Of a DNA stretch of 40,470 bases, positions 13,136 to 30,844 are shown one piece after another. The translations under genes and the position numbers were made by a program. The DNA is taken from sequence record NC_031943.1. One strand, 5' to 3'. The notes below the pieces were generated by a model. It ran no database searches. It saw only the letters and a list, made by a program, of their open reading frames with translations, and was not told the DNA's origin. How positions within the stretch are numbered: position 1 is the first letter of the stretch; the number at the start of each line of letters is the position of its first letter. This stretch comes from Escherichia phage GA2A.

Positions 13136-13186
13136 TAGACTCAAGGTCATTCACATCGAGTGACCTTTATGATTAGACTAAACGGA
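13136..13186 (+). promoter_or_regulatory. Conserved hairpin element, probable RNase III site (R3.8-like position)
   Basis: TAGACTCAAGGTCAT...GTGACCTTTATGATTA; second copy of the element. Confidence 0.55.
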
Positions 13187-13195
13187 GGATTAATA

Positions 13196-14068
13196 ATGAA
13201 GGTTCTAAGTCTGTTTGATGGAGTTGGTGGTGGATATCAAGCACTACGGCTTGCCGGGGTCCAAGTCTCTTCATACATCTCTTCAGAGATAGAAAAGAGC
13301 AGTATAAACATAGCAGCCCGTCATATACCTGACTACTTAAACCTAGGTGATGTTAGAGGGGTAAGAGGTGGTGACTACGACTTAATACTTGCCGGGTCTC
13401 CATGTCAAGGCTTTTCGTATGCAGGGAGGGGGCTTAACTTCAGTGATCCGCGCTCCTCACTCTTCTTCGAATTTGTCAGAATAGTCAGAGAATCATTAAT
13501 CTTTAACCCTGATGTTAAAATCTTCTTAGAGAACGTAAATATGCGTAGGGAGTGGAAGGATGTCATAACGTCAGAGCTGGGAATCAATCCAGTAGAAATA
13601 TGCGCATCCACATTATCACCTTTCCGTAGAAACCGATTATACTGGTTCAACTGGGAGTCAGCACCTGAAATAAAGACTGTCAGTTTCAAGGAGCTAACTG
13701 GTGGTTTACCATGTAGTATAGTTGGTAGACCACTTGACGAGAACCTTAAGAGGGTAGACGGAAAAGGCCTTCCGGTGGTTCAATGCATAGAGGTTACAAA
13801 TGGGGATATTGGAAGATGTGTAACTACGGTATCAAAAGACTCATGTGTATACCTAGGGGCTAATAGACCTCCGTCTAGAATACCTGATGCATATGGGGCT
13901 AATCGTAACTTATGGAGAGACCTTACTATATCCGAGCTGGAGGTGGGGCATGGGTATGACAGTGGGTTTTTTGATAATGTCAAGGAATCTACCGCCAGAA
14001 AGGCCATAGGAAACGGATGGAGCTTACAGGTTGTTTCTAGCATATTTAGAGGGCTAAACCATGTTTGA
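13196..14068 (+). CDS. DNA (cytosine-5)-methyltransferase, orphan
   Basis: Ordered C5-MTase motifs: I LFDGVGGG, IV GSPCQGFS, VI FLENV, VIII FRRNRLYWF, X IGNGWS; start at ATG 13196 with RBS GGAGG; visibly AT-richer than flanks; not present in T7. Confidence 0.85.
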   Translation: MKVLSLFDGVGGGYQALRLAGVQVSSYISSEIEKSSINIAARHIPDYLNLGDVRGVRGGDYDLILAGSPCQGFSYAGRGLNFSDPRSSLFFEFVRIVRESLIFNPDVKIFLENVNMRREWKDVITSELGINPVEICASTLSPFRRNRLYWFNWESAPEIKTVSFKELTGGLPCSIVGRPLDENLKRVDGKGLPVVQCIEVTNGDIGRCVTTVSKDSCVYLGANRPPSRIPDAYGANRNLWRDLTISELEVGHGYDSGFFDNVKESTARKAIGNGWSLQVVSSIFRGLNHV

Positions 14069-16232
14069 CCTTAAGAGTATCTGGGGTTCTGACATCGAGA
14101 CCAACGGTCTCCTTGACACCGTGTCCCAGTTCCATTGTGGGGTCCTGATTAATGCCGAGTCGAATGAGACCCTTAAGTATGGGGTAGCGCCGATGGTCGG
14201 TATCGTCGGTGGCTTCAAAGAGTATGTGCAGAAGGTGGAAGAGATTGCCGCATCGCCGGATGGTATGCTGGTATTCCACAACGGTATCAACTATGACGTC
14301 CCTGCTATTGACAAGCTGAAGCGTCTGTACTTCGGGAAACGCTTTAACTTCCCGAAACACAAGATGATTGATACCTTGGTGTTGGGCCGCTTGATGTATC
14401 CCAACATTAAGTTCTCAGACATGGGAGCGGTGAAAGCTGGTCGTCTGCCACCTAAGATGATGGGACGCCAGTCTCTTGAGGCTTGGGGCTATCGTCTAGG
14501 TGAGATGAAGGGTGAGTACAAACACGATTACGTTGCCAAGTGCAAGGCCGAAGGTATCGAATATAAGTCTGGGGACGAATGGTTGTTCCCATCTCAGGAG
14601 ATGCTGGACTATAACGTTCAGGACGTTGTGGTCACACTGGCATTGTTCAAGAAGTTCCTGACTGACAAGTATTACTTCCAGTCTGAACAGTTCGCTTTCG
14701 AACAGATTTATGCGTTGCGTCTGGAACATGATGCTGCGTGGACCTGTGCGAAGATGGAGCGTAATGGCTATCCGATGAACACCGAGATGGTCGAAGGCTT
14801 ATATCGTGAACTCACTGTCAAACGTGCGGAGTTACTTGACAAGCTGCGCTCTACTTTCGGTAGCTGGTACGCACCAAAGGGAGGCAAGGAGTTCTTCAGG
14901 CATCCACGGACAGGTAAGGACCTTCCGAAGTATCCGCGAGTCGTGTATCCTAAGGTCGGTGGAATCTTTAAGAAGCCGAAGAACAAAGCTCAACGCTTAG
15001 GTCTTGAACCTTGTGAACTCGATACGCGAGACACAATGGAAGGAGCACCATTCACGCCAATCACTTACGTTGAGTTTAATCCGGGAAGCGGAGACCACTT
15101 AGCGAAAGTCCTGATGGAGCGTGGCTGGGAGCCTGCGGACTTCACTGACACCGGTAAACCCGTAGTCGATGACGAGACGTTAGAACACGTTAAGTTACCA
15201 GACGCAGAGGCTCAGGCTTGCGTAGAGCTGGTCCGTGAGTATCTGGTGGTCCAGAAGCGCATCGGTCAGGCGGCTGAAGGTAAGAACGCATGGTTGAAAC
15301 TTGTGGGTCCAGACGGACGTATGCACGGTTCAATCAATCCATGTGGTGCAGTAACCGGACGTGCGACCCATAGTTCACCAAACATGGCTCAGGTCCCAGC
15401 TAACGGTGCTCCATATGGTGAGACTTGCCGTGGTGCTTTCGGTGCAGCGTGGAACAAGACTGACGGTAAGCCAGACCCTTGGATTCAAGTAGGTGTGGAT
15501 GCTTCAGGTCTTGAGCTTCGTTGTCTGGGGAACCGAGCGTCTCCGTTCGATGGTGGTGAATACGCGAAGACTGTAGTAGAAGGTGACATCCACTGGGCCA
15601 ATGCTGTCAACGCAGGGTTAGCTCCTAACGTCCCACGCGACAAGTCTAGCCACGACCACGATGCTTTCCGTAACAACGCCAAGACGTTCATCTATGCGTT
15701 CCTGTATGGTGCAGGGGCCGCGAAGATTGGACTGATAGTAGGAGGCGGTAAGAAGGAAGGTTCAGCTCTCATGAAGAAATTCATTGAGGGCACACCAGCT
15801 ATCAAGGACCTGCGAGAGGCTGTGCAGAACACGCTCATATCTGAGTCCAAGTGGGTAGACGGTGAGAACATCGTGAAGTGGAAACGTCGCTGGCTGAAGG
15901 GTCTGGACGGTAGACGCATTCACATCCGGTCTCCACACTCAGCACTTAACGCCTTACTTCAGGGTGACGGTGCGGTGGTATGTAAGCACTGGATGGTACT
16001 GACTGAGAAGAAACTCGAAGAGGCTGGTTACGGTAACGGATGGGACGGTGACTTTGCACTAATGGCGTGGATTCACGATGAATTACAGATAGCGTGTCGC
16101 ACTCAGGAGATAGCAGAAGATGTCGTCCGTATTGCTCAAGAGGCGATGCGTGAGGTGGGTGAGTTCTATAACTTTAAATGCGTCCTTGACACCGAAGGGA
16201 AGATAGGACCAACGTGGAAGGAGTGTCACTAG
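14061..16232 (+). CDS. 5: DNA polymerase (family A)
   Basis: 723 aa; long blocks match T7 gp5 (EAWGYRLGEMKGEYK, YNVQDVVVT, KVGGIFKKPKNKAQR, GAVTGRATH, VDASGLELRC, NAKTFIYAFLYGAG, WKRRWLKGLDGRRIHIRSPH). Confidence 0.97.
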   Translation: MFDLKSIWGSDIETNGLLDTVSQFHCGVLINAESNETLKYGVAPMVGIVGGFKEYVQKVEEIAASPDGMLVFHNGINYDVPAIDKLKRLYFGKRFNFPKHKMIDTLVLGRLMYPNIKFSDMGAVKAGRLPPKMMGRQSLEAWGYRLGEMKGEYKHDYVAKCKAEGIEYKSGDEWLFPSQEMLDYNVQDVVVTLALFKKFLTDKYYFQSEQFAFEQIYALRLEHDAAWTCAKMERNGYPMNTEMVEGLYRELTVKRAELLDKLRSTFGSWYAPKGGKEFFRHPRTGKDLPKYPRVVYPKVGGIFKKPKNKAQRLGLEPCELDTRDTMEGAPFTPITYVEFNPGSGDHLAKVLMERGWEPADFTDTGKPVVDDETLEHVKLPDAEAQACVELVREYLVVQKRIGQAAEGKNAWLKLVGPDGRMHGSINPCGAVTGRATHSSPNMAQVPANGAPYGETCRGAFGAAWNKTDGKPDPWIQVGVDASGLELRCLGNRASPFDGGEYAKTVVEGDIHWANAVNAGLAPNVPRDKSSHDHDAFRNNAKTFIYAFLYGAGAAKIGLIVGGGKKEGSALMKKFIEGTPAIKDLREAVQNTLISESKWVDGENIVKWKRRWLKGLDGRRIHIRSPHSALNALLQGDGAVVCKHWMVLTEKKLEEAGYGNGWDGDFALMAWIHDELQIACRTQEIAEDVVRIAQEAMREVGEFYNFKCVLDTEGKIGPTWKECH

Positions 16233-17967: not shown

Positions 17968-18041
17968 TATACTGGGCCGGACTTCTGGCCCTTTACTACA
18001 TGTATAAGTGGTTCGGGTCGAACAACCGTCCTAAACACTGA
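17949..18041 (+). CDS. Possible small membrane peptide, 30 aa (gene 6.3-like position)
   Basis: ATG inside the 3' end of gene 6 in another frame; hydrophobic MDTIHVIYWAGLLALYYMYKWFG. Confidence 0.25.
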   Translation: MDTIHVIYWAGLLALYYMYKWFGSNNRPKH

Positions 18042-18095
18042 GTCTAACCGATAGTCATATCCTATCAATCCAACAGTCATCCATAGGTGAAACAC

Positions 18096-18118
18096 TAAAC
18101 TATCACTATAGGGACTTT
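18096..18118 (+). promoter_or_regulatory. Phage promoter (phi6.5 position)
   Basis: TAAACTATCACTATAGGGA. Confidence 0.8.
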
Positions 18119-18177
18119 AGGACCAAAGATATGACTATAAGATAGACTTTAGTCTTAACTTAAAGAGGAGATTCAAG

Positions 18178-18450
18178 ATGGCGATTAATGCTATTGAAAA
18201 CGTTGTTAAGCAGTTACAGGAAGAAAGACTTGATGTCCCGAACATCTCACAGTCTGCCATCCAGTTCCTGCACGTACTGTTCAACGCAAGCTACGCTGAG
18301 AAGATGGGAGCTATCAGTCTCCTCAAGCAGCAAGGCTACAGCGATGCGTTCATTGCCGGGTTCATCAAGGGTCTCCAGTATTGTTCTGACACTCTCGACT
18401 CTGCAATCGCTATGCGTCGTGAGCTGAAAGATACCGTTCAGTTCGATTAA
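18178..18450 (+). CDS. Hypothetical protein, gp6.5-like by position
   Basis: 90 aa; RBS AAAGAGGAG; first gene after promoter. Confidence 0.55.
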   Translation: MAINAIENVVKQLQEERLDVPNISQSAIQFLHVLFNASYAEKMGAISLLKQQGYSDAFIAGFIKGLQYCSDTLDSAIAMRRELKDTVQFD

Positions 18451-18464
18451 CTGTAGGAGGGACT

Positions 18465-18689
18465 ATGTGTTTCAGTCCAAAGATTAGCACTCCGAAGCCG
18501 TCTGTCCAAGCACCTGAACCAGCACCTCTGAGTGAGGAGGTTGCGTCAGTTGACATCGGGGCAGAATCGGATGTAGACACCAACGAGACCAAAGGTATCA
18601 AAGACCTTAAGGTTAAGAAGGAGTCTGCACCTAAAGATAAATCGTCAGTGAGTCGCGCTATGCGGGCCTCTGGCGTAAACATGGGGTAA
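18465..18689 (+). CDS. 6.7: gp6.7-like virion protein
   Basis: N-terminus MCFSPKI matches T7 gp6.7; RBS AGGAGGG. Confidence 0.7.
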   Translation: MCFSPKISTPKPSVQAPEPAPLSEEVASVDIGAESDVDTNETKGIKDLKVKKESAPKDKSSVSRAMRASGVNMG

Positions 18690-18693
18690 GACA

Positions 18694-19098
18694 ATGCTAC
18701 CATATCTCAACTCACGCGAAGGTCGCCACATGTGCGCCTGTCGCCTCTGGGAAGACGGGCAGTCTAACTTCAAGTCATTCGAGGACTTCAAGGCTCATAC
18801 TTATCGTATGGCTGACGAGTTCGACGGTGAAGAGTACACAATCTACGATGTCTCAGGTCAACCAGTAGCGTATCTCTACATGCTGGCTACCGCATCTTGG
18901 CACCGACCGACTCCCGGTCTTGACCTTTCAATCGTCGCTATTCGTCGTGACTCGCAGTCCTCCCGCAAGGTTCTTGAGACTGTCAGGCACATCATAGACG
19001 AAGAGTGCAATCGTTGGGGTCTTGGCTGGTATTCTCGTGTCAAGCATGTTTCTGGGTCGGTAGACATCGTAACAACTAAGGAGATTAACCGTGGGTAA
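18694..19098 (+). CDS. Hypothetical protein, gp7-like by position and size
   Basis: 134 aa versus 133 for T7 gp7. Confidence 0.55.
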   Translation: MLPYLNSREGRHMCACRLWEDGQSNFKSFEDFKAHTYRMADEFDGEEYTIYDVSGQPVAYLYMLATASWHRPTPGLDLSIVAIRRDSQSSRKVLETVRHIIDEECNRWGLGWYSRVKHVSGSVDIVTTKEINRG

Positions 19099-19339
19099 AT
19101 CAATCAGTAAGGCTTTCAAGAAAGTGGTGAAAAGTACGTTAGGGACCGTAGGTCTTGGCTCTGACGATGCACCTAATGTTGTTGAGGCTCAGACCCCAGC
19201 AGCACCAGTGGAAGTTCCGAACGACCAAGTTGAAGATGTGGATACTGAAACAACCGCATCTGACGAGAAGAAAGTGAAGCGGTCCGGTAAGCGTAGCCTT
19301 CAGGTCTCTCGCACCTCTGGTGGAGGCATCTCTATATGA
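19091..19339 (+). CDS. 7.3: gp7.3-like tail-associated protein
   Basis: N-terminus MGK...K..KKV and C-terminus KRSLQVSRTSGGGISI resemble T7 gp7.3 (ending SGGGINI); GTG start after AAGGAG. Confidence 0.75.
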   Translation: MGKSISKAFKKVVKSTLGTVGLGSDDAPNVVEAQTPAAPVEVPNDQVEDVDTETTASDEKKVKRSGKRSLQVSRTSGGGISI

Positions 19340-19746
19340 CAGACTGCATACTACATAAAGGCTGCGTTAATAATTCTGGGTATGGCCTGAAGTGGTATGC
19401 TGGTAAGCTGCGGGGAGCACACGTAGTGTCGTATCTCAATAACAAGGGACCTATACCAGAAGGGCTAGTTGTGATGCACTCTTGTGACAACAGATTGTGC
19501 GTAAATCCAGAACACCTTAGTATTGGGACCTACAGTGAGAACATGATAGACTGTGTTTCCAAGGGACGGAAGAACTCTCCGCATAGTGACAGCCACTACA
19601 ACTCCAAGCTGAGCGCTGAAGAAGTTAAGTCCATACGCAAGTCAGGACTAACGGCTACAGAGCTTACAGCCATGTATCCCGGAGTGTCTAGGAGAACGCT
19701 GTCTGACGTATTAACAGGTAAAACATGGAGGCACGTAGATGGCTGA
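19336..19746 (+). CDS. HNH endonuclease (homing-endonuclease-like), gene 7.7 position
   Basis: HSCDNRLCVNPEHL HNH core with upstream SGYG...GAHV; paralog of 30395-30844. Confidence 0.85.
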   Translation: MTDCILHKGCVNNSGYGLKWYAGKLRGAHVVSYLNNKGPIPEGLVVMHSCDNRLCVNPEHLSIGTYSENMIDCVSKGRKNSPHSDSHYNSKLSAEEVKSIRKSGLTATELTAMYPGVSRRTLSDVLTGKTWRHVDG

Positions 19747-21307
19747 ACGTGAAGGGTTCGCTGCTGAAGGCGCGAAGTCAGTTTATGATAGATTAAAGAA
19801 CGGACGACAGCCATATGAGACGCGCGCTCAGAACTGTGCTGCCGTGACCATCCCCTCGCTATTTCCCAAGGAGTCCGACAACTCGTCTACGGAATACGTG
19901 ACGCCGTGGCAAGCTGTAGGTGCTCGCTGCTTGAACAACTTGGCCGCAAAGCTAATGTTGGCGTTATTCCCGCAGTCACCGTGGATGCGACTGACAGTCT
20001 CAGAATATGAGGCCAAGACCTTGAGTCAGGACTCAGAGGCCGCTGCTCGTGTTGACGAAGGGCTGGCTATGGTCGAGCGTGTGTTGATGGCCTACATGGA
20101 GACAAACAGTTTCCGTGTCCCACTGTTTGAAGCTCTGAAGCAGCTTATCGTCTCCGGTAACTGTCTGCTTTACATTCCTCCTCCAGAACAAGGAACCTAC
20201 AGTCCCATGCGAATGTACCGCTTAGTGTCTTACGTTGTTCAACGTGATGCGTTCGGTAACATCTTGCAGATTGTGACTCTCGACAAGGTAGCGTTTAGTG
20301 CTCTACCGGAAGACGTGAAGTCTCAACTCAACGCAGACGACTATGAGCCTGACACCGAGCTTGAAGTGTATACGCACATATACCGTCAGGACGATGAGTA
20401 TCTGCGATATGAGGAAGTGGAAGGCATTGAGGTAACAGGGACCGATGGTTCCTACCCGCTGACTGCATGTCCATACATCCCGGTACGAATGGTTCGACTG
20501 GATGGTGAAGACTATGGTCGTTCTTACTGCGAGGAGTATCTGGGAGACCTGAACTCGCTGGAGACGATTACAGAAGCTATCACCAAAATGGCTAAGGTAG
20601 CCTCCAAAGTGGTGGGCCTCGTTAACCCGAACGGTATCACGCAACCTCGACGTCTGAACAAGGCGGCTACAGGTGAGTTCGTGGCGGGTCGAGTAGAGGA
20701 CATCAACTTCCTGCAACTGACGAAAGGTCAGGACTTTACGATTGCCAAGTCGGTGGCTGATGCTATCGAGCAACGTTTAGGCTGGGCCTTCCTTCTTAAT
20801 AGTGCTGTTCAGCGTAATGCCGAGCGAGTAACTGCTGAAGAGATTCGTTATGTTGCTGGCGAACTGGAGGCGACCTTAGGTGGCGTGTACTCAGTACAGT
20901 CACAAGAGCTTCAGTTACCTATCGTCCGTGTACTGATGAACCAGCTTCAGTCTGCTGGCATGATTCCTGACCTTCCGAAAGAAGCGGTAGAGCCTACGGT
21001 CTCCACTGGTCTGGAAGCTCTGGGCCGTGGTCAGGACTTGGAGAAGCTGACTCAGGCAGTAAACATGATGACTGGTCTTCAGCAGCTCTCTCAGGACCCG
21101 GACATCAACTTGCCGACCCTTAAGCTGCGACTTCTGAACGCTCTGGGTATAGACACCGCTGGCCTGCTCCTGACGCAAGACGAGAAGCTGCAACGTATGG
21201 CTGAACAATCCGCTCAAGGAGCTGTGGTCAATGGTGCGTCTGCTGCTGGTGCTAACATGGGCGCTGCTGTAGGTCAGGGAGCTGGTGAGGACATGGCTCA
21301 AGCCTAA
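19739..21307 (+). CDS. 8: Portal (head-to-tail connector) protein
   Basis: 522 aa; extensive identity to T7 gp8 (YETRAQNCA, TPWQAVGAR, YRLVSYVVQRDAFGN, CPYIPVRMVRLDGEDYGRSY, VTAEEIRYVA, STGLEALGRGQDL). Confidence 0.97.
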   Translation: MAEREGFAAEGAKSVYDRLKNGRQPYETRAQNCAAVTIPSLFPKESDNSSTEYVTPWQAVGARCLNNLAAKLMLALFPQSPWMRLTVSEYEAKTLSQDSEAAARVDEGLAMVERVLMAYMETNSFRVPLFEALKQLIVSGNCLLYIPPPEQGTYSPMRMYRLVSYVVQRDAFGNILQIVTLDKVAFSALPEDVKSQLNADDYEPDTELEVYTHIYRQDDEYLRYEEVEGIEVTGTDGSYPLTACPYIPVRMVRLDGEDYGRSYCEEYLGDLNSLETITEAITKMAKVASKVVGLVNPNGITQPRRLNKAATGEFVAGRVEDINFLQLTKGQDFTIAKSVADAIEQRLGWAFLLNSAVQRNAERVTAEEIRYVAGELEATLGGVYSVQSQELQLPIVRVLMNQLQSAGMIPDLPKEAVEPTVSTGLEALGRGQDLEKLTQAVNMMTGLQQLSQDPDINLPTLKLRLLNALGIDTAGLLLTQDEKLQRMAEQSAQGAVVNGASAAGANMGAAVGQGAGEDMAQA

Positions 21308-21327
21308 ACTATCACTATAGGAACACC
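21305..21327 (+). promoter_or_regulatory. Phage promoter (phi9 position)
   Basis: TAAACTATCACTATAGGA; its TAA is the portal stop codon. Confidence 0.8.
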
Positions 21328-21422
21328 GAAAGTAAGAGCGACTAAGCCGACCATATGGTAGCCGTTAGTCCCACACTGCAAGTAGGTGTTTACCTATTAA
21401 CGACTTAAAGGAGAATGACTCA

Positions 21423-22307
21423 ATGTCTCAATCAGTTTATGCCGAGTTCGGCGTTAGCTCTAATGCAATCACTGGTTCCGTTGAGGACCTGAACGAACAC
21501 CAGAAGTCTATGCTTGAACAGGACGTAGCTGTTCGTGATGGCGACGACGCTATTACCTTCAAGCAACTGGAAGCCGAAAATGAAGAGGCTGACGAAGAAG
21601 ACGAGAACGTCGAAGAGACTGAAGGTGAAGAAGACCACGAGTCCGATGACGAAGAGTCTGAGGCCGATGGTGAGCAGCCTGAGTTCATCGAACTGGGTGA
21701 TGCACCGAAAGAGCTGACCGAAAGTGTCACCGCTCTGGATGAAAACGAAGCTGCATTCGACGACATGGTGTCTTCTGCTGTGGAAGCTGGCAAGGTCACT
21801 GCTGATGAAATTACCGCTATCAAGGCCGAATACGCCAAGGACGGTAAGCTGTCTGATGCATCCTACGCTAAGTTGCAGGAAGCAGGTTACACCAAGCGTT
21901 TCGTAGATTCGTTTGTCCGTGGTCAGGAAGCTCTGGCTGAACAGTATGCTGCTGGTGTAGTCCGCTACGCTGGTGGAGCTGAACAGTTTAATCGAATCCT
22001 GTCTCACCTTGAGTCAACCGACCCGTCAACTCGTGAGGCATTGGAAGCTGCTATCGTTCGTAAGGACATTGCGACTACCAAAGCTCTGCTGAATCTGGCT
22101 GGCAAGACTCTTGGTAAAGCTGTTGGTGTTAAACCTCAGCGTACCATCACCACTCAGGCTAAACCTGTGGTCGCACCTAAGGCTCCTAAGACCGAAGCAT
22201 TCAGCTCTAAAGCTGACATGATTAAGGCTATGAGTGACCCGCGATACCTGCGTGACGCTAAGTACACGATGGAAGTTCGAGCTAAGGTAGCTGCATCAAG
22301 CCTGTAG
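21423..22307 (+). CDS. 9: Capsid assembly (scaffolding) protein
   Basis: 294 aa, highly acidic; blocks DGDDAI, AESYAKL..GYTK.F.DS..RGQEAL.EQY, MIKAMSDPRY match T7 gp9. Confidence 0.92.
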   Translation: MSQSVYAEFGVSSNAITGSVEDLNEHQKSMLEQDVAVRDGDDAITFKQLEAENEEADEEDENVEETEGEEDHESDDEESEADGEQPEFIELGDAPKELTESVTALDENEAAFDDMVSSAVEAGKVTADEITAIKAEYAKDGKLSDASYAKLQEAGYTKRFVDSFVRGQEALAEQYAAGVVRYAGGAEQFNRILSHLESTDPSTREALEAAIVRKDIATTKALLNLAGKTLGKAVGVKPQRTITTQAKPVVAPKAPKTEAFSSKADMIKAMSDPRYLRDAKYTMEVRAKVAASSL

Positions 22308-22310
22308 GAC

Positions 22311-22333
22311 TAAACTATCACTATAGGGAGACC
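22311..22333 (+). promoter_or_regulatory. Phage promoter (phi10 position) with long 5' UTR
   Basis: TAAACTATCACTATAGGGAGA, closest to the canonical strong T7 class III start GGGAGA; ~105-nt leader with 8-bp inverted repeat TATTACTT/AAGTAATA. Confidence 0.85.
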
Positions 22334-22433
22334 AATAGACAGACTCAAGGTTTCCCTATTACTTCAGTCCATACGGATTGGGCGTACAGTAAGTAATAAA
22401 CTTTATCTTTCATTCGAATAGGAGAATTATCAT

Positions 22434-23480
22434 ATGGCAAACGTTCCGGGTCAGAAAATTGGTGCAGACCAAGGTAAAGGCCAATCTAGTGCAGACCAGC
22501 TAGCACTGTTCCTTAAGGTCTTCGCTGGTGAAGTCCTGACAGCTTTCACTCGCCGCTCTGTTACCGCTGACAAACATATTGTCCGCACCATTCAGAATGG
22601 TAAGTCCGCACAGTTCCCGGTAATGGGTCGCACCTCCGGTGTGTATCTTGCTCCCGGTGAGCGCCTGAGCGATAAGCGCAAGGGTATTAAACACACTGAG
22701 AAGGTTATCACCATTGATGGTCTGCTGACCTCTGACGTGATGATTTTCGACATCGAAGACGCCATGAACCACTATGACGTGGCGGGCGAGTATTCCAACC
22801 AGCTCGGTGAGTCTCTGGCTATCGCTGCTGATGGCGCGGTACTGGCTGAGATGGCGATTCTGTGTAACCTCCCTGCCGAATCTGACGAGAACATCGCTGG
22901 TCTGGGCAAGGCGTCCGTTCTGGAAGTTGGTACTAAAGCCGACCTGAACACTCCAGCCAAGCTGGGTGAAGCGATCATTGGTCAACTGACCATCGCACGT
23001 GCTAAGCTGACTGCCAACTACGTGCCTGCTGGCGACCGCTACTTCTATACTACGCCTGACAACTACTCCGCGATTCTGGCGGCTCTGATGCCTAACGCTG
23101 CTAACTACGCTGCGCTGATTGACCCTGAGACGGGCAACATCCGTAACGTAATGGGCTTCGTTGTGGTTGAAGTTCCTCACCTGACTCAGGGTGGTGCTGG
23201 CGAAACTCGTGGTGAAGATGGTATCTCCATTGCTTCCGGTCAGAAACACGCATTCCCGGCTACCTCCAGCTCTACCGTTAAGGTTGCTCTGGACAACGTT
23301 GTGGGCCTGTTCTCTCACCGTTCCGCTGTTGGTACTGTTAAGCTGCGCGACTTGGCGCTGGAACGTGACCGCGACGTCGATGCTCAGGGCGACCTGATTG
23401 TCGGTAAGTACGCTATGGGTCACGGCGGTCTGCGTCCAGAAGCAGCAGGCGCTCTGGTTTTCAGCCCAGCAGCTCCGTAA
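22434..23480 (+). CDS. 10A: Major capsid protein 10A
   Basis: 348 aa; LALFLKVF.GEVLTAF, GKSAQFPV, HTEKVITIDGLLT, EDAMNHYDV, LMPNAANYAALIDPE, AMGHGGLRPEAAGA match T7 gp10A. Confidence 0.97.
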   Translation: MANVPGQKIGADQGKGQSSADQLALFLKVFAGEVLTAFTRRSVTADKHIVRTIQNGKSAQFPVMGRTSGVYLAPGERLSDKRKGIKHTEKVITIDGLLTSDVMIFDIEDAMNHYDVAGEYSNQLGESLAIAADGAVLAEMAILCNLPAESDENIAGLGKASVLEVGTKADLNTPAKLGEAIIGQLTIARAKLTANYVPAGDRYFYTTPDNYSAILAALMPNAANYAALIDPETGNIRNVMGFVVVEVPHLTQGGAGETRGEDGISIASGQKHAFPATSSSTVKVALDNVVGLFSHRSAVGTVKLRDLALERDRDVDAQGDLIVGKYAMGHGGLRPEAAGALVFSPAAP

Positions 23481-23746
23481 CAACCCTTAAGATGACCGTG
23501 GCTTCGGCTCCGGTCGTCCAGACTGTTAGTGGCATTGTAGGAACGAGCATTAAGGTTGAACTCACAGAACTTGTGGATGTGACCGATTGGTCTCTGCTGG
23601 CTGTAAGTGTCGACGACCCTGCCGTAACCTACAGTCGCCGCACCAATAGTCTGTACTTTAAGGCTTCGGTGGCTGGTGACTACCAGATTATCATCAGCTA
23701 TGATGGCTCTCCTGTGAGAACCTTCAAGCTGCAAGTCACAAACTAA
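23456..23746 (+). CDS. 10B: Probable 10B C-terminal extension reached by programmed -1 frameshift
   Basis: Slippery heptamer GGTTTTC at 23456-23462 near the 10A stop; the -1 frame stays open to 23746 and encodes a beta-rich, Ig-like segment. Confidence 0.5.
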   Translation, partial: GFQPSSSVTTLKMTVASAPVVQTVSGIVGTSIKVELTELVDVTDWSLLAVSVDDPAVTYSRRTNSLYFKASVAGDYQIIISYDGSPVRTFKLQVTN

Positions 23747-23750
23747 TTGA

Positions 23751-23789
23751 AACCCCTTGGGTGCCTTCGGGTGCTTGAGGGGTTTTTTG
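23751..23789 (+). terminator. Tphi-like terminator for phage RNAP
   Basis: AACCCCTTGGGTGCCTTCGGGTGCTTGAGGGGTTTTTTG, GC stem plus U-run, same place and form as T7 Tphi. Confidence 0.9.
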
Positions 23790-23803
23790 CTTAAGGAGGG
23801 CCT

Positions 23804-24370
23804 ATGGCTCAGTACATTCCGCTTAACGCTAATGACGACTTGGATGCTGTCAACGATATGCTGGCTGCTATCGGTGAACCAGCAGTCCTACAGCTCGACG
23901 AAGGGAACGCAGACGTCTCTAACGCTCAACGTATCCTGCATCGTGTCAATCGTCAGGTCCAAGCTAAAGGCTGGAACTTTAACATCAACGAAGCTGCTGT
24001 CCTGACGCCTGATGTCCAAGACAATAAGATTCGATTCCTACCGTCTTACCTTCGGGTCATGACTGCGGGCGCTACCAGCTACTACAGTAACATGGGTGGC
24101 TATCTCTATGACCTCAGCACTCAGTCGACAACCTTCACCGGGCCGATTACAGTCGAGCTGGTGGAGATGAAGCCATTCTCCGAGATGCCTGTGGTCTTCA
24201 GGGACTACATCGTGACCAAGGCAAGCCGTGAGTTCAACGCTAAGTTCTTCGGCAGCCCTGAGTCTGAAGCATACCTGAGGGAGCAGGAAGCAGAGCTGTA
24301 CCAGCAGGTGATGGAGTACGAGATGGACACCGGGCGATACAACATGATGTCTGACATCGGGAGGGACTAA
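23804..24370 (+). CDS. 11: Tail tubular protein A
   Basis: 188 aa; blocks NDMLAAIGEP, GNAD..NAQRIL.RVNRQVQAKGWNFNI, FRDYIVTKASREFN, MEYEMD match T7 gp11. Confidence 0.95.
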   Translation: MAQYIPLNANDDLDAVNDMLAAIGEPAVLQLDEGNADVSNAQRILHRVNRQVQAKGWNFNINEAAVLTPDVQDNKIRFLPSYLRVMTAGATSYYSNMGGYLYDLSTQSTTFTGPITVELVEMKPFSEMPVVFRDYIVTKASREFNAKFFGSPESEAYLREQEAELYQQVMEYEMDTGRYNMMSDIGRD

Positions 24371-24597
24371 TGGCCACTCATAACCTCAAGATTAACCGAG
24401 AGTTCTTTGGTCCAGTGAAGCTGGGACTGAAGACCGCTGAGCTGAGACTCAACGACAGGGACTACAAGGTGGGCGATTGGCTCATCCTGAACGAGTACGA
24501 CAACGGGTACACTGGACAGCAGGTAGCACGTAAGGTTGTCCACGTGGCTGACGTAGGGTCCATAGCTCCGGGTTACGTCCTGATGAGCTGCATTTAA
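24370..24597 (+). CDS. Small ASCH/PUA-like protein inserted between tail tube genes
   Basis: 75 aa; ATG overlaps gp11 stop (TAATG) with RBS GGGAGGG; motif F.PVKLGLKTAELRLNDRDYKVGDWLILNEYD; no gene here in T7. Confidence 0.55.
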   Translation: MATHNLKINREFFGPVKLGLKTAELRLNDRDYKVGDWLILNEYDNGYTGQQVARKVVHVADVGSIAPGYVLMSCI

Positions 24598-24608
24598 CTG
24601 GAGGTGAT

Positions 24609-26978
24609 ATGCCACTTTATACACAAAGCATTAAGAACCTTAAGGGTGGAATTAGCCAACAGCCTGACATCCTTCGGTTCTCTGACCAAGGGGAGACCCA
24701 GATTAACGGATGGTCCTCTGAAAGTGATGGACTCCAGAAGCGTCCACCTACAGTCTGGAAGAAGCGACTAACCGCTCTGAACGAGGTTATCCCTGACCGG
24801 GCAAAGTTCCACCTGATTAACCGTGACGAGAATGAGCAGTATTACATCGTGTTCACTGGTAGTGATATTATGGTGTTAGACCTTGAGGGGAACCAGTACG
24901 CTGTGACTGGGGACATGAATTACGTTAACACCGACGCACCTCGTGATGACATCCGGGTTATTACAGTGGCTGACTACACGTTCATCGTCAACCGTAAGCG
25001 AGTCGTTAGGGAAGGGACTGAGGTCTCACATCCGGGATACGACATGAAGCACCGAGCGTTGATTAACCTTCGCGGTGGTCAGTACGGCAGAACGCTGACG
25101 GTCTCAATCAATGGTGGGGCCAAGGTAGAGCACACGCTCCCGGCTGGTAATAATGCTGAAGAGGACCCACCTAAGGTCGATGCTCAGTACATCGGTGCGC
25201 AACTGAGGACACTTCTGGTCGCTGCATATCCGAACTATACGTTCAACCTCGGGTCAGGCTACCTTGAGATTGTTGCTCCTGCTGGACAGTCCATCACCTC
25301 CGTAGAGACGACTGACGGTTACGCTAACCAGCTAATCACTGCGGTCATTGATACGGTACAGACTATCAGTAAGCTGCCTCTGGCGGCTCCTGAGGGTTAT
25401 ATCATCCGTATCCAAGGTGAGACCAACAGTAGCGCTGATGAATACTACGTTCGGTATGACACCCAGCGTAAGACTTGGCGTGAGACGGTTGAGCCGGGAG
25501 TGACTACAGGTCTGGACCCTGAGACAATGCCCCATGCTCTGGTTCGTCAGGTTAACGGGAACTTTACGTTCCAGACGCTGAACTGGTCTAAGCGCGGTGC
25601 TGGTAACGAGGACACTAACCCGATGCCATCCTTCGTGGATAACACCATCAACGATGTGTTCTTCTACCGTAATCGTCTTGGCTTCCTGTCTGGAGAGAAC
25701 GTTGTGATGTCTCGTTCAGCCAGCTACTTTGCGTTCTTCCCTAAGAGCGTGGCGACCCTCAGTGATGACGACCCTATTGATGTGGCTGTGAGTCACCCTC
25801 GAATCTCCATCCTGAAGTATGCCGTGCCGTTCGCTGAACAGTTGCTGCTGTGGTCGGATGAGGTTCAGTTCGTGATGACCAGCTCTGGAGTCTTGACCTC
25901 CAAGTCCATTCAACTTGATGTTGGCTCTGAGTTCGCTGTGAGTGATAATGCTCGACCGTTCGCTATTGGACGTTCAGTCTTCTTCGCTGCGCCTCGTGGA
26001 TCATTCACCAGCATTAACCGTTACTTTGCTGTGGCGGATGTGACAGACGTTAAGGACGCAGACGATACGACAGGGCACGTGCTCTCCTACATTCCGAACG
26101 GGGTCTTCGACATCCAAGGGTCTTCGACTGAGAACTTCATTACTGTGTCGACTGAGGGTGCTCCGAACAAGCTGTTTATCTACAAGTTCCTCTTCAAGGA
26201 TGGAGTGCAGCTTCAAGCCTCTTGGTCTCACTGGGAGTTGGAGCAAGGAGAGCAGATTATGGCCTCAGCCTGTATAGGGTCCTCTATGTACATCGTGCGT
26301 AAGCATGGCTACGGAGTTGACTTGGAAAAGCTGGAGTTCATCAAGGAGGCTGTGGACATCGGCGGGGAACCCTACCGTCTCCATCTTGATGGTAAAACCA
26401 CTATGGTCATCCCGACTGACGCGTTCAACCCTGACACCTACACCTCGTCCTTCGACGTTGGTGTGGCATACGGTGGAGTTTTCCCACCAGCAGGGAAGTA
26501 TGTCATGGTCGACTCCGGTGGGCGCTCCGTGCAGCTACCAGACACCGTATGGTCCAGCACCCGGTGGGTGACTGTGAAGGGCGATTGGTCAGGCAAGACA
26601 GTGTTCATCGGTCGTGTCTATAAGTTCACCTACGCCTTCTCTAGGTTCCTCATCAAGTACGAGGACCAGAACGGGACGATTACGGAAGACTCCGGTCGAC
26701 TCCAGCTTCGCCGCGCTTGGGTGAACTATCAGCGCACTGGCGCTCTGGTGATGCGTGTCGTCAACCAACAGCGTGAGTTCCTGAACACCCTTAACGGCTA
26801 CAAGCTTGGACTACAGGACATCGGTCGGGTCAACATTGGTGACGGTCAGTTCAGGTTCCCAATGAACGGAGACGCTCTGCACACTCGGTTAATCCTTGAG
26901 TCAGACTATCCGACCCCAGTGTCCATCGTTGGTTGCGGCTGGGAGGCTTCATATGCCCGTAAAGCCAAAGCTATCTAA
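24609..26978 (+). CDS. 12: Tail tubular protein B
   Basis: 789 aa versus 794 for T7; SIKNLKGGISQQPDILR, NGWSSE, VADYTFIVNR, RNRLGFLSGEN, DDDPIDVAVS, ILKYAVPF, GRLQLRRAWVNY, IVGCGWE match T7 gp12. Confidence 0.97.
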   Translation: MPLYTQSIKNLKGGISQQPDILRFSDQGETQINGWSSESDGLQKRPPTVWKKRLTALNEVIPDRAKFHLINRDENEQYYIVFTGSDIMVLDLEGNQYAVTGDMNYVNTDAPRDDIRVITVADYTFIVNRKRVVREGTEVSHPGYDMKHRALINLRGGQYGRTLTVSINGGAKVEHTLPAGNNAEEDPPKVDAQYIGAQLRTLLVAAYPNYTFNLGSGYLEIVAPAGQSITSVETTDGYANQLITAVIDTVQTISKLPLAAPEGYIIRIQGETNSSADEYYVRYDTQRKTWRETVEPGVTTGLDPETMPHALVRQVNGNFTFQTLNWSKRGAGNEDTNPMPSFVDNTINDVFFYRNRLGFLSGENVVMSRSASYFAFFPKSVATLSDDDPIDVAVSHPRISILKYAVPFAEQLLLWSDEVQFVMTSSGVLTSKSIQLDVGSEFAVSDNARPFAIGRSVFFAAPRGSFTSINRYFAVADVTDVKDADDTTGHVLSYIPNGVFDIQGSSTENFITVSTEGAPNKLFIYKFLFKDGVQLQASWSHWELEQGEQIMASACIGSSMYIVRKHGYGVDLEKLEFIKEAVDIGGEPYRLHLDGKTTMVIPTDAFNPDTYTSSFDVGVAYGGVFPPAGKYVMVDSGGRSVQLPDTVWSSTRWVTVKGDWSGKTVFIGRVYKFTYAFSRFLIKYEDQNGTITEDSGRLQLRRAWVNYQRTGALVMRVVNQQREFLNTLNGYKLGLQDIGRVNIGDGQFRFPMNGDALHTRLILESDYPTPVSIVGCGWEASYARKAKAI

Positions 26979-27005
26979 CTAATTGAATGGCCTATAGTTT
27001 CAACT

Positions 27006-27028
27006 TAACTATCACTATAGGGACTATA
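27006..27028 (+). promoter_or_regulatory. Phage promoter (phi13 position)
   Basis: TTAACTATCACTATAGGGA, flanked by inverted repeat GGCCTATAGT / ACTATAGGCC. Confidence 0.8.
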
Positions 27029-27052
27029 GGCCCTTTAAGTTATAGGAACTTT

Positions 27053-27523
27053 ATGTATATTCGTAAGGCTACTGAACCAGATGTTCACTACCTATTGGGA
27101 CATCTCTCACAGGATGACGTTAACGAGTGCAGGGCAAACTTCGGGTCGACCAAAGGTCTGACCGACAGAATGCTCAGTCACCTCACTCCGTCATCTGTGG
27201 TTTTGACGAATGGCGTAGGCGAAGTGTTTGCCTATGGAGGGAACCAAGGAGATAACGTGTGGTTCCTGACTTCAAGTCTTGTCGAAAGGTTACGTCCTAA
27301 AGACAAGCGTGAGTTCATTCAGCGCATCTCTGAGTACAGGGACTTAATGTTAGGCCAATACGGGACCATCTGGAACTACGTGTGGTCAGGCAATAAGTCT
27401 CACATTAAATTCTTGAAGTTGCTTGGCGCTAAATTCCATGATGATTGGACAGTTAGTCCAGTAACTGGTGAGCGTTTTCAATTATTCACTATCTCTAAGG
27501 AGGACGTATGTGCGAGCCAGTAA
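27053..27523 (+). CDS. 13: Internal virion protein A
   Basis: NVWFLTSSLVERLRP...FIQRISEYRDLML...IWNYVWSGNKSHIKFLKLLGAKFH...QLFTISK matches T7 gp13; start moved to ATG 27053 because track start 26987 is upstream of the promoter start site. Confidence 0.8.
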   Translation: MYIRKATEPDVHYLLGHLSQDDVNECRANFGSTKGLTDRMLSHLTPSSVVLTNGVGEVFAYGGNQGDNVWFLTSSLVERLRPKDKREFIQRISEYRDLMLGQYGTIWNYVWSGNKSHIKFLKLLGAKFHDDWTVSPVTGERFQLFTISKEDVCASQ

Positions 27524-28095: not shown

Positions 28096-28106
28096 GAGGA
28101 GGACTA

Positions 28107-30394: not shown

Positions 30395-30844
30395 ATGAAG
30401 AACGGGACAGCCAGTGAGAGACTGGCACGTCTTTCTGCTGTAGAGGAAACTGGCTGTGTCCGCTTCACCGGAGGTCTTAACAGCAGTGGGTATGGAAACT
30501 TATGGGTCGATGGAAAGACAGTAGGAGCGCACCGTGTTGCCTATGAGTTAGCGAATGGTCCGATACCTAAGGGTAGCGTACTGCGACACACTTGCGACAA
30601 CAGGTATTGCGTGAACCCTGAACACTTAGTCTTAGGGACGCATCGTGAAAACATGGAGGATATGACTAAACGTGGTCGTCAGGCAAGAGGCTCACAGATA
30701 AGCACTTGCGTACTGACTGAAGAAGACGTCAGGTTTATCCGCTCAAGTGATAAAAGCGGTGTGGAACTGGCACAGATTTTAGGAATCTCACCAGTAACTA
30801 TCAGTCGAATCAAGAGGAGATTAACATGGCAACACGTGGTATAA
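30395..30844 (+). CDS. HNH endonuclease, second copy, inserted between genes 15 and 16
   Basis: HTCDNRYCVNPEHL core with SGYG...GAHRVAY; paralogous to 19336-19746; 3' end overlaps the start of gene 16 by 19 nt. Confidence 0.85.
   Translation: MKNGTASERLARLSAVEETGCVRFTGGLNSSGYGNLWVDGKTVGAHRVAYELANGPIPKGSVLRHTCDNRYCVNPEHLVLGTHRENMEDMTKRGRQARGSQISTCVLTEEDVRFIRSSDKSGVELAQILGISPVTISRIKRRLTWQHVV

What the first reader, a model, noticed from the sequence alone, without database searches (positions are those of the whole stretch)
19336..19746. HNH endonuclease at the gene 7.7 position, overlapping both neighbours
A 136-aa HNH protein sits between the gp7.3-like gene and the portal gene. Its ATG overlaps the 7.3 stop and its stop overlaps the portal start. 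This is the ancestral-looking copy of the two paralogs. From memory, T7 genes at this position have been described as homing-endonuclease-like, but I could not verify that here.
Basis: partly seen in the sequence, partly recalled or inferred. Interest (0 to 1): 0.4.

Follow-up and report, generated by a model that had tools for sequence, protein, structure and literature searches.

The report
Mobile HNH endonuclease gene before portal
This is an ordinary, already annotated selfish "homing endonuclease" gene that has slotted itself between two essential virion genes of a T7-like coliphage without disturbing them; it is real and nicely documented by comparison with relatives, but it is not new.

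Summary
ORF 19336-19746 (+, 136 aa) shares ATGA with the gene 7.3 stop. Its last 8 nt overlap the portal ATG at 19739. It passes Pfam HNH_3 (E 9e-12) and has an intact His-Me finger core. It is 44% identical to T7 gp7.7, which sits in the same place. The window is Escherichia phage GA2A (Kayfunavirus), where the gene is already annotated as an HNH endonuclease.

Relatives point to a free-standing homing endonuclease gene:
- About nine in ten related phages have an empty site, with only an 11-nt spacer between 7.3 and the portal gene.
- Others carry divergent HNH alleles at the same spot.
- Two phages keep independently deleted remnants.
- In phage Ro45lw the gene is 98% identical to GA2A, inside a sharply bounded tract (19313-19755). 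The adjacent 7.3 gene is only 62-66% identical, and the genome median is 86%.
- dN/dS between alleles is 0.056, so the protein is under purifying selection.

The element also supplies the portal gene's Shine-Dalgarno (GGAGG, 19727-19731).

T7 gp5.3 is unrelated. The "ancestral-looking copy" claim is not supported, because the 30395 copy is closer to T7 gp7.7.

Cleavage activity and target site are inferred, not shown. Novelty: already known. Interest: low.

The parts
19336..19746 (+). Free-standing HNH (His-Me finger) homing endonuclease gene, 136 aa; counterpart of T7 gene 7.7
   Evidence: ORF. HNH_3 E 9e-12. 44% identical to T7 gp7.7. 100% identical to 'HNH endonuclease [Escherichia phage GA2A]'.
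19414..19545 (+). HNH_3 nuclease core (aa 27-70). Beta-beta-alpha-metal motif with His48 as putative general base and Asn69 as putative metal ligand. Cys4/Cys50/Cys55/His60 are a putative structural zinc site.
   Evidence: Pfam match spans aa 27-70. C4, Y16, H48, C50, C55, H60, L61, G64, T65 and N69 are invariant in a 43-sequence alignment. The AF2 model has strands 44-48 and 61-65 and helix 66-75. Residue roles are inferred from the family.
19615..19716 (+). C-terminal three-helix (helix-turn-helix-like) putative DNA-binding domain (aa 94-127)
   Evidence: AF2 helices 94-103, 107-113 and 119-127. Full-length Foldseek alignment to I-HmuI. Weak HTH hits in PDB and Pfam for this protein and its paralog. 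The CR44b record annotates an HTH at the equivalent place.
19322..19326 (+). GGAGG Shine-Dalgarno for the HNH gene, 9 nt before its ATG, made by synonymous changes in the last codons of gene 7.3
   Evidence: Read from the sequence. GA2A, Ro45lw and Klebsiella phage VAC1 have GGAGG here. Pipis, ST31, CR44b, Vec13 and the empty-site phage EcoDS1 have GGCGG. Function is inferred.
19727..19731 (+). GGAGG Shine-Dalgarno for the portal gene, 7 nt before ATG 19739, embedded in HNH codons Trp-Arg (TGG AGG)
   Evidence: Read from the sequence. It replaces the GGAGG of the 11-nt spacer seen in the empty site of EcoDS1. It is retained in both decayed remnants, Seyj3-1 and Monomax. Function is inferred.
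19313..19755 (+). Transferred cassette: tract of 97-99% identity between GA2A and the otherwise divergent phage Ro45lw
   Evidence: Mismatch map: the last upstream mismatch is at 19312 and the first downstream mismatch at 19756. The 7.3 gene just upstream is 62-66% identical. Genome-wide median identity of 400-nt tiles is 86%.
19091..19339 (+). Gene 7.3 (virion assembly / host-range protein); its stop overlaps the HNH ATG
   Evidence: Pfam VirionAssem_T7 E 1.6e-9. The protein ends ...GGGISI both with and without the insert.
19739..21307 (+). Gene 8 (portal / head-tail connector); its first 8 nt lie inside the HNH ORF
   Evidence: Pfam Head-tail_con E 3.7e-96. The same ATGGCTGAACGT start is used in the empty-site phage EcoDS1.
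18099..18114 (+). Phage RNA-polymerase promoter (phi6.5) that most likely drives genes 6.5, 6.7, 7, 7.3, HNH and 8 as one late transcript
   Evidence: One of 11 matches to ACTATCACTATAGGGA, with 0.24 expected by chance. It corresponds to the annotated phi6.5 of Ro45lw and EcoDS1. The next promoter is at 21308, and no terminator-like site lies between them on the + strand.
30395..30844 (+). Second HNH_3 homing endonuclease gene (149 aa) between genes 15 and 16; same family but a separate site-specific lineage
   Evidence: HNH_3 E 2e-16. 45% identical to the 19336 protein. The site is empty in EcoDS1 and holds other alleles in CR44b ('7.7C') and other phages.

Best explanation
The ORF is a free-standing homing endonuclease gene (HEG). 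It belongs to the HNH_3 branch of the His-Me finger nucleases and is the Kayfunavirus counterpart of T7 gene 7.7. It is a selfish, dispensable cassette lodged in the 11-nt spacer between genes 7.3 and 8.

Proposed mechanism:
1. The gene is transcribed late from the phi6.5 promoter together with its structural neighbours, and translated from its own ATG.
2. The small monomeric protein binds DNA through its C-terminal helix-turn-helix. Its single beta-beta-alpha-metal site (His48 as base, Asn69 as metal ligand, a Cys3His zinc knuckle as scaffold) most likely nicks one strand. This is what I-HmuI-type HNH homing enzymes do.
3. The target is near the 7.3/8 junction of a co-infecting related phage that lacks the gene.
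4. Replication and recombination repair of that damage, using the HEG-carrying genome as template, copies the cassette and a few flanking bases into the recipient.

The insertion costs the phage little. The 7.3 and portal proteins are unchanged, and the cassette's last codons provide the portal gene's ribosome-binding site.

What is shown: family membership, intact catalytic residues, purifying selection, presence/absence at a fixed site, several alleles, decayed remnants, and a sharply bounded transferred tract.

What is inferred: that the enzyme cleaves, that it nicks rather than cuts both strands, where its target lies, and the promoter and SD assignments.
For: Family and fold:
- HNH_3 at 44.9 bits against a cut-off of 24.8; PHROG HNH families to E 8e-28.
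- C4, H48, C50, C55, H60 and N69 are invariant across 43 homologues.
- AF2 model with pLDDT 89.6. Its best PDB match is I-HmuI (probability 0.99, 139 aligned columns), followed by I-PpoI.

Orthology with T7 7.7:
- 44% identity, E 1e-34, at the same position.
- The nearest relatives outside the genus (64% and 48% identity) also sit between the 7.3 and portal genes.

Dispensability and polymorphism:
- The empty site in EcoDS1 reads TCTATTTAA-GGAGGTGACTA-ATGGCT.
- In an evenly spaced sample of 60 of the 202 records matching the empty junction, 55 run straight across it.
- The GA2A-type allele occurs in only four phages of the 50,697-record set. A CR44b-type allele occurs in five. A third, Vec13-type allele also exists.

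Decay:
- Seyj3-1 keeps a 30-codon in-frame remnant.
- Monomax keeps a frameshifted remnant made by a different deletion.

Mobility:
- Ro45lw flanks are 75.5% and 88.8% identical, but the HNH gene is 98.0% identical.
- ST31 shows the reverse: flanks 96.6% and 94.5%, HNH 84.6%.
- The transferred tract has edges at 19313 and 19755.
- HNH tiles rank in the top 5 of 274 genome-wide tiles, level with the capsid gene.

Functional protein: dN/dS 0.056 between GA2A and ST31 alleles, from 47 synonymous and 14 non-synonymous differences.

Literature:
- T7 lacking 2.8, 3.8 and 7.7 is viable (10.1101/2025.09.07.674715).
- A Kayfunavirus HEG overlapping both neighbours, with a spontaneous 397-bp loss, has been described (PMC8861465).
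- I-HmuI-type HNH enzymes nick one strand (PMC3428280).
Against: - No biochemical data exist for this protein or, as far as the searched literature shows, for T7 gp7.7. Cleavage, strand specificity and target site are untested.
- The Foldseek match to I-HmuI is modest (E 0.011, TM 0.43, rmsd 8.6 Å). No PDB sequence hit covers the nuclease domain.
- The GA2A-type allele has Val where most relatives have Arg in the conserved A-H-R motif (residue 30). The consequence is unknown.
- The sharply bounded tract shows recombination of the cassette, not necessarily endonuclease-initiated homing.
Confidence: 0.78

Rival explanations
1. A co-opted element that benefits the phage. One option is that it damages the genome of a co-infecting relative near the essential portal gene (interference competition). 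The other is that it binds DNA ends or breaks and so blunts host defences that sense DNA damage, independently of catalysis. This could hold in addition to homing rather than instead of it.
For: - A preprint reports that T7 lacking 2.8, 3.8 and 7.7 is outcompeted by wild type only on hosts carrying GAPS4. It also reports that catalytically dead T7 gp3.8 still attenuates GAPS4 (10.1101/2025.09.07.674715).
- An intron HNH endonuclease mediates interference competition in PhiPA3 (PMC11620839, abstract).
- Strong purifying selection, dN/dS 0.056, fits a protein whose activity matters.
- 7.7-type genes sit at the same junction in several genera.
Against: - gp7.7 itself was never tested alone in that preprint. 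The direct assays used T7 gp3.8, which is only marginally similar to this protein (E 0.007).
- About nine in ten close relatives do without the gene, and two have let it decay. This argues against a strong general benefit.
- Purifying selection is also expected for an actively homing element.
Confidence: 0.25
2. A packaging accessory. This would be an HNH protein working with the portal and terminase to cut concatemeric DNA, like the HNH proteins encoded next to the terminase genes of HK97-like phages.
For: It lies directly upstream of, and is translationally linked to, the portal gene. The authors of PMC8861465 raised the idea for another Kayfunavirus HNH gene next to the large terminase.
Against: - The gene is absent from most close relatives, whose portal and terminase genes are about 94-96% identical in this region.
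- It is decayed in two phages.
- T7 without 7.7 is viable.
- The gene is about 17 kb from the terminase genes (37776-39545).
- The family is HNH_3 with an HTH, the architecture of I-HmuI-type homing enzymes.
Confidence: 0.03
3. A catalytically dead relic kept only as a spacer that carries the portal gene's ribosome-binding site, or as a DNA-binding protein without nuclease activity.
For: - Both remnants keep exactly the 3' end that carries the portal SD. That segment is therefore under selection for a reason unrelated to the nuclease.
- The Arg-to-Val change at residue 30 departs from the family consensus.
Against: - All ten invariant family residues are intact, including the putative base His48 and the metal ligand Asn69.
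- dN/dS is 0.056 over the whole ORF.
- A 98%-identical copy has recently entered a divergent genome.
Confidence: 0.07

Closest known systems
Bacteriophage T7 gene 7.7 protein (annotated HNH endonuclease; one of T7's three putative homing endonuclease genes, with 2.8 and 3.8)
   Same: - Same family and about the same length (130 against 136 aa); 44% identity over the full length.
- Same position between 7.3 and 8.
- The stop abuts or overlaps the gene 8 ATG.
- The gene 8 Shine-Dalgarno lies in the Trp-Arg-His codons in both.
- Both are dispensable.
   Different: - T7 7.7 has a 13-nt spacer with its own AGGAGG and a GTG start. GA2A uses an ATGA overlap with the 7.3 stop.
- The GA2A allele is quite diverged. 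The window's other HNH copy is closer to T7 gp7.7, at 51%.
- Neither protein has been characterised biochemically, as far as the searched literature shows.
I-HmuI (SPO1 intron-encoded HNH nicking homing endonuclease, PDB 1U3E)
   Same: Best structural match of the AF2 model, at probability 0.99 over the whole length. Both have an N-terminal HNH nuclease followed by a C-terminal helix-turn-helix, and both are small monomeric enzymes with one active site.
   Different: - I-HmuI is intron-encoded in a DNA polymerase gene; this gene is free-standing and intergenic.
- Sequence identity is only 20%, and there is no sequence-level PDB hit.
- This protein has an invariant Cys3His set resembling the zinc sites of I-PpoI and SMAD MH1, which are the next-best structural hits.
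- Nicking is inferred here, not shown.
Other Kayfunavirus free-standing HNH genes (CR44b 7.7 / 7.7C; Hafnia phage Ca ORF48)
   Same: Same HNH_3 + HTH family. Each is wedged between two essential late genes with overlapping start and stop codons. Each is present in some relatives and absent in others. Spontaneous loss was observed for the Hafnia phage Ca gene.
   Different: - CR44b 7.7 occupies the identical site but is only 43% identical in protein. It shares no detectable DNA similarity apart from the last 20 nt of the 396-nt query (the shared 3' junction spans about 30 nt), and it uses a TTG start.
- The others occupy different sites: the 15/16 junction and the lysis-gene (annotated 'lysin' in the paper)/terminase junction.
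AP2-associated HNH homing endonucleases (IPA-HNH of ICP1 and other phages)
   Same: An N-terminal HNH domain of a related type. They are free-standing and often sit next to essential genes (PMC10448857).
   Different: No AP2 domain was detected here (Pfam scan to E=1). The DNA-binding module is an HTH instead.

Membership tests
Pfam HNH_3 (PF13392) / His-Me finger nucleases | Score above the curated gathering threshold of the family model | tested here: met
   44.9 bits against a cut-off of 24.8, E 9e-12, aa 27-70.
Pfam HNH_3 (PF13392) / His-Me finger nucleases | Conserved catalytic His (general base) and Asn (metal ligand) on a beta-beta-alpha scaffold | tested here: met
   H48 and N69 are invariant in 43 homologues. 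The AF2 model has strands 44-48 and 61-65 and helix 66-75. Residue roles are assigned by family analogy.
Pfam HNH_3 (PF13392) / His-Me finger nucleases | Metal-dependent nuclease activity | not testable with these tools
   Needs purified protein.
Homing endonuclease gene (free-standing) | Present or absent at one fixed site among otherwise collinear relatives | tested here: met
   The site is empty in EcoDS1 and in 55 of 60 sampled relatives. It is occupied in GA2A, Pipis, Penshu1, Ro45lw and ST31.
Homing endonuclease gene (free-standing) | History discordant with the flanks (horizontal movement) | tested here: met
   Ro45lw: HNH 98.0% against flanks of 75.5% and 88.8%. ST31: HNH 84.6% against flanks of 96.6% and 94.5%. 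Tract edges are at 19313 and 19755.
Homing endonuclease gene (free-standing) | Degenerate copies in some lineages (invasion-decay-loss cycle) | tested here: met
   Seyj3-1 and Monomax carry remnants from two different internal deletions.
Homing endonuclease gene (free-standing) | Site-specific cleavage of the HEG-less allele, and super-Mendelian inheritance in mixed infection | not testable with these tools
   Needs in vitro cleavage mapping and phage crosses.
T7 gene 7.7 orthologue group | Significant full-length similarity to T7 gp7.7 | tested here: met
   44% identity over 134 aa, E 1e-34 pairwise; tblastn E 2e-25.
T7 gene 7.7 orthologue group | Location between gene 7.3 and gene 8 | tested here: met
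   The same holds for the 64% and 48% homologues.
   BLASTP E 30. The 5.3-position protein of a related phage carries PDDEXK_5, a different fold.
I-HmuI-like HNH + HTH architecture | Structural match over both domains | tested here: inconclusive
   I-HmuI is the top PDB hit at probability 0.99 over 139 columns. However, E is 0.011, TM is 0.43 and rmsd is 8.6 Å.
AP2-associated HNH endonucleases | C-terminal AP2 DNA-binding domain | tested here: not met
   No AP2 family appears among Pfam hits at E up to 1. The model shows a three-helix C-terminus.
Terminase-associated packaging HNH proteins (HK97 gp74 type) | Conserved and required next to the terminase/portal genes | tested here: not met
   The gene is absent from most close relatives and decayed in two. 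It lies about 17 kb from the terminase genes.

The most novel reading that the evidence does not exclude
The 7.7-type HNH cassette may be more than a parasite. It might be kept because it helps the phage, either by nicking rival Kayfunavirus genomes beside the essential portal gene during co-infection, or by masking DNA breaks from break-sensing host defences such as GAPS4. It has also taken over translation initiation of the portal gene, so that even decayed copies cannot be fully lost.
Probability: 0.2. Interest if true: 0.5.

Novelty: already known. Interest (0 to 1): 0.22.

Why it matters
It matters little beyond good annotation. The gene is already labelled as an HNH endonuclease in the public record of this phage and its relatives, and T7 gene 7.7 is a recognised homologue.

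The comparative picture is still a compact natural example of the homing-endonuclease life cycle in T7-like phages. It includes the empty site, several alleles, two independent decayed remnants, a 443-bp transferred tract with sharp edges, and a portal ribosome-binding site embedded in the element.

It also defines a clean substrate for the first biochemical test of a 7.7-type enzyme: the empty 7.3/8 junction of EcoDS1/K1F-type phages. Such enzymes are of some current interest because of reports that phage homing endonucleases affect phage competition and host defence.

Tried and rejected
- **PDB sequence search:** it found no solved relative of the nuclease domain, only a weak HTH-like hit at E 0.41. 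NCBIfam gave nothing.
- **RNA structure at the two junctions and the empty site:** no better than shuffled sequence, with z-scores of -0.34, 0.24 and 0.22. There is no evidence for a hairpin that sequesters either ribosome-binding site.
- **Sigma-70 promoter and terminator scan of 18000-24000:** counts were at the shuffled expectation. Nothing lies between phi6.5 and the end of gene 8 on the + strand.
- **T7 gp5.3 as a relative:** rejected.
- **Recent in-genome duplication of the two HNH copies:** rejected. They are 45% identical to each other, and each has closer relatives at its own site in other phages. An unbootstrapped NJ tree groups the copies by site. Its identity table is inflated by shared gaps and was not used.
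- **'HEG island' between the two HNH genes:** identity between GA2A and Ro45lw falls to 76-91% (mostly 76-88%) immediately downstream of the cassette. No island was seen for this pair.
- **IMG/VR scans:** the occupied-junction pattern gave four contigs, three with the lengths of known isolates (CR44b, ST31, Ro45lw). One 39.9-kb metagenome-derived contig carrying an ST31-type allele was inspected. The exact empty-junction pattern gave none, so these scans added no usable frequency estimate.
- **Literature:** a search for 'gp7.7' with 'HNH' found nothing, and nothing was found on phage GA2A.
Full report
**1. The observation**

The ORF finder lists 19336-19746 (+) as a 136-aa ATG-initiated ORF. 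The sequence reads ...TCT ATA TGA with the HNH ATG inside ATATGA. The start codon (19336-19338) therefore overlaps the TGA stop (19337-19339) of the 82-aa ORF 19091-19339.

At the other end, GTAGATGGCTGA holds both the portal ATG (19739) and the HNH stop (19744-19746), an 8-nt overlap. The upstream ORF matches Pfam VirionAssem_T7 (gp7.3, E 1.6e-9). The downstream ORF matches Head-tail_con (portal, E 3.7e-96).

The protein passes the curated threshold of Pfam HNH_3 (44.9 bits against 24.8, E 9e-12, aa 27-70). It also has a sub-threshold match to the zinc-loop model of His-Me homing endonucleases. It hits nine PHROG HNH/endonuclease families (best E 8e-28).

It is 45% identical (E 1e-35) to the 149-aa product of 30395-30844. 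tblastn finds no third copy in the window.

**2. What the window is**

The protein is 100% identical to 'HNH endonuclease [Escherichia phage GA2A]', found on a 40,470-bp contig, which is the length of the window. The Ro45lw record refers to its homologue as 'similar to hypothetical protein GA2A_35'.

The nearest genomes are Kayfunavirus (K1F-like members of the T7 group). The gene is therefore already in the public record with the same functional label.

**3. Relation to T7**

The figures below are pairwise BLASTP values.

| T7 protein | Identity to the GA2A 7.7-position protein | E-value |
|---|---|---|
| gp7.7 | 44% over 134 aa | 1e-34 |
| gp2.8 | 41% | 1e-25 |
| gp3.8 | marginal | 0.007 |
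| gp5.3 | none | 30 |

tblastn against the phage collection also finds T7 7.7 at E 2e-25, annotated '7.7: HNH endonuclease'. It sits between 7.3 and 8.

A 2025 preprint treats T7 2.8, 3.8 and 7.7 as the phage's three homing endonucleases and builds a viable triple deletion (10.1101/2025.09.07.674715).

**4. Protein anatomy**

In a 43-sequence alignment that includes T7 and metagenomic homologues, ten residues are invariant: C4, Y16, H48, C50, C55, H60, L61, G64, T65 and N69. H29, D51, N57, D72 and R78 are nearly so.

An AlphaFold2 model built on 40 sequences has a mean pLDDT of 89.6. It shows strands 44-48 and 61-65 followed by helix 66-75, which is the beta-beta-alpha-metal core. His48 lies at the end of the first strand and Asn69 in the helix. 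A three-helix C-terminal domain spans residues 94-127.

Foldseek against the PDB puts I-HmuI first (probability 0.99, 139 aligned columns, but E 0.011 and TM 0.43). I-PpoI and SMAD MH1 domains follow, and both are zinc-bearing His-Me folds.

My reading is an I-HmuI-like two-module enzyme with nuclease and HTH domains, plus a Cys3His structural zinc site. The residue roles are inferred from the family. No AP2 domain is present.

**5. Population evidence that it is a mobile, dispensable element**

*(a) Empty site.* EcoDS1 has 7.3 ending TCT ATT TAA, then an 11-nt spacer GGAGGTGACTA, then ATGGCTGAACGT of gene 8. In GA2A the spacer is replaced by 399 nt, a net gain of 388 nt. This matches the 1801-nt against 1413-nt spans. 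The 7.3 and portal proteins are unchanged.

I searched with the 301-nt empty junction and took an evenly spaced sample of 60 of the 202 matching records. Of these, 55 align straight across the junction and 5 are interrupted. About nine in ten relatives therefore lack the gene.

*(b) Several alleles at one site.*
- The GA2A-type DNA occurs only in Pipis, Ro45lw and Penshu1 (97-98.5%) and in ST31 (84.6%).
- A CR44b-type allele is 43% identical in protein and uses a TTG start. It shares no DNA similarity with the GA2A type apart from the last ~20 nt, and occurs in five phages.
- A third type occurs in Vec13.

*(c) Decay.* Seyj3-1 retains ATGACAG fused to the last 80-odd nt, giving an in-frame 30-codon ORF. 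The deletion occurred at an ACAG microhomology. Monomax has a different deletion at a CTGCATA repeat that shifts the frame. Both remnants keep the 3' end with the portal ribosome-binding site.

*(d) Discordant history.*

| Comparison with GA2A | Upstream flank | HNH gene | Downstream flank |
|---|---|---|---|
| Ro45lw | 75.5% | 98.0% | 88.8% |
| ST31 | 96.6% | 84.6% | 94.5% |

A mismatch map against Ro45lw shows a tract of 97-99% identity running from 19313 to 19755. Gene 7.3 immediately upstream is only 62-66% identical.

Genome-wide, 400-nt tiles of GA2A against Ro45lw have a median identity of 86% and a 95th percentile of 95.7%. The HNH tiles (97.5%) rank in the top five of 274, level with the major capsid gene.

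*(e) Selection.* GA2A and ST31 alleles differ by 47 synonymous and 14 non-synonymous changes, giving dN/dS of 0.056. The protein is, or recently was, functional.

*(f) Site fidelity across genera.* The closest homologues outside Kayfunavirus are from Klebsiella phage VAC1 (64%) and a T7-like metagenome-assembled contig (48%). Both lie between the VirionAssem_T7 and Head-tail_con genes.

**6. How the element fits into its host operon**

The window has 11 matches (at most 3 mismatches) to the phage-polymerase promoter core ACTATCACTATAGGGA, against 0.24 expected by chance. One lies at 18099 (phi6.5) and the next at 21308, with no terminator-like site between them on the + strand. The HNH gene is therefore most likely co-transcribed late with genes 6.5 to 8.

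The HNH gene's own Shine-Dalgarno is GGAGG at 19322-19326. It is created by synonymous changes in the last 7.3 codons. GA2A, Ro45lw and VAC1 share it, whereas Pipis, ST31, CR44b, Vec13 and EcoDS1 have GGCGG. In Ro45lw this variant lies inside the transferred tract.

The portal gene's Shine-Dalgarno is GGAGG at 19727-19731, within the HNH codons for Trp-Arg of the conserved KTWRH motif. T7 has the same arrangement, with TGGAGA before the gene 8 ATG.

No unusual RNA structure covers either junction. The SD and promoter functions are inferences from sequence.

**7. Mechanism and rivals**

The best-supported reading is a free-standing HNH homing endonuclease. By analogy with I-HmuI-type enzymes, which nick one strand near the insertion site (PMC3428280), it would damage HEG-less genomes near the 7.3/8 junction during mixed infection. 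Recombinational repair would then copy it in. The sharp 443-bp tract in Ro45lw is what such an event would leave behind.

The rivals are:
- **Beneficial co-option.** This would be interference competition or attenuation of break-sensing defences, as reported for other phage homing endonucleases. It is possible as an added role. However, gp7.7 has not been tested on its own, and most relatives lack the gene.
- **A packaging HNH.** This is contradicted by the empty sites and the remnants.
- **A dead relic.** This is contradicted by the intact invariant residues and the low dN/dS.

**8. The 'ancestral copy' claim**

The 30395 copy is closer than the 19336 copy both to T7 gp7.7 (51% against 44%) and to the HNH_3 consensus (59.6 against 44.9 bits). 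Each copy's best relatives sit at its own site in other phages (VAC1 at 64%; CR44b 7.7C at 57%), and an unbootstrapped NJ tree groups them by site. The 15/16 site is itself polymorphic.

The two are therefore independent site-specific lineages of one family. Nothing marks the 19336 copy as ancestral.

**9. Verdict**

This is a real, correctly identified and ordinary feature that is already annotated in public records. Its value lies in being a clear example of the homing-endonuclease cycle and in offering a defined substrate for testing a 7.7-type enzyme.

Cleavage activity, strand preference and the target site remain untested.

Noticed in passing
window 30395-30844 (+): A second HNH_3 + HTH endonuclease gene (149 aa) lies between internal virion protein genes 15 and 16, overlapping the gene 16 start (30826) by 19 nt. 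The site is empty in EcoDS1. It is occupied by a 57%-identical allele in CR44b ('7.7C') and by closer alleles in TM1, Pipis and Ro45lw. This copy is closer to T7 gp7.7 (51%) than the 7.7-position copy is.
   Followed up: partly
window 13160-14068 (+): A 302-aa ORF with a GTG start matches C-5 cytosine DNA methylase (PF00145, E 7.8e-24; only the first third of the model is matched). It overlaps the start of the DNA polymerase gene (14061-16232). Window 13201-13700 has no counterpart in Ro45lw, so this looks like an accessory gene, possibly with an anti-restriction role.
   Followed up: no
window 19739-30389: The two HNH genes bracket the structural block of genes 8-15 (about 10.65 kb). This recalls the 'HEG islands' proposed by Barth et al. 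(PMC10448857). In the GA2A/Ro45lw comparison, identity drops right after the first HNH cassette, so no island is evident for that pair. Other pairs were not examined.
   Followed up: partly
window 19322-19330: Three synonymous changes in the last codons of gene 7.3 (GGAGGCATC against GGCGGTATT) create a GGAGG 9 nt before the HNH ATG. GA2A and the divergent phage Ro45lw share them, but Pipis and ST31, which carry the same HNH allele, do not. The variant seems to travel with the cassette in some transfers.
   Followed up: partly
L008 (Salmonella phage Seyj3-1) about 2237-2330; L009 (Dickeya phage Monomax) about 2240-2332: Both hold unannotated remnants of the HNH gene between 7.3 and the portal gene, made by two different microhomology-mediated internal deletions. 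Both keep the portal ribosome-binding site.
   Followed up: yes
window 2636, 6170, 8064, 9046, 11155, 18099, 21308, 22314, 27008, 34714, 39645 (+): Eleven phage RNA-polymerase promoter cores (ACTATCACTATAGGGA with at most 3 mismatches; 0.24 expected by chance) lie on the + strand and mark the transcription units of the genome.
   Followed up: partly
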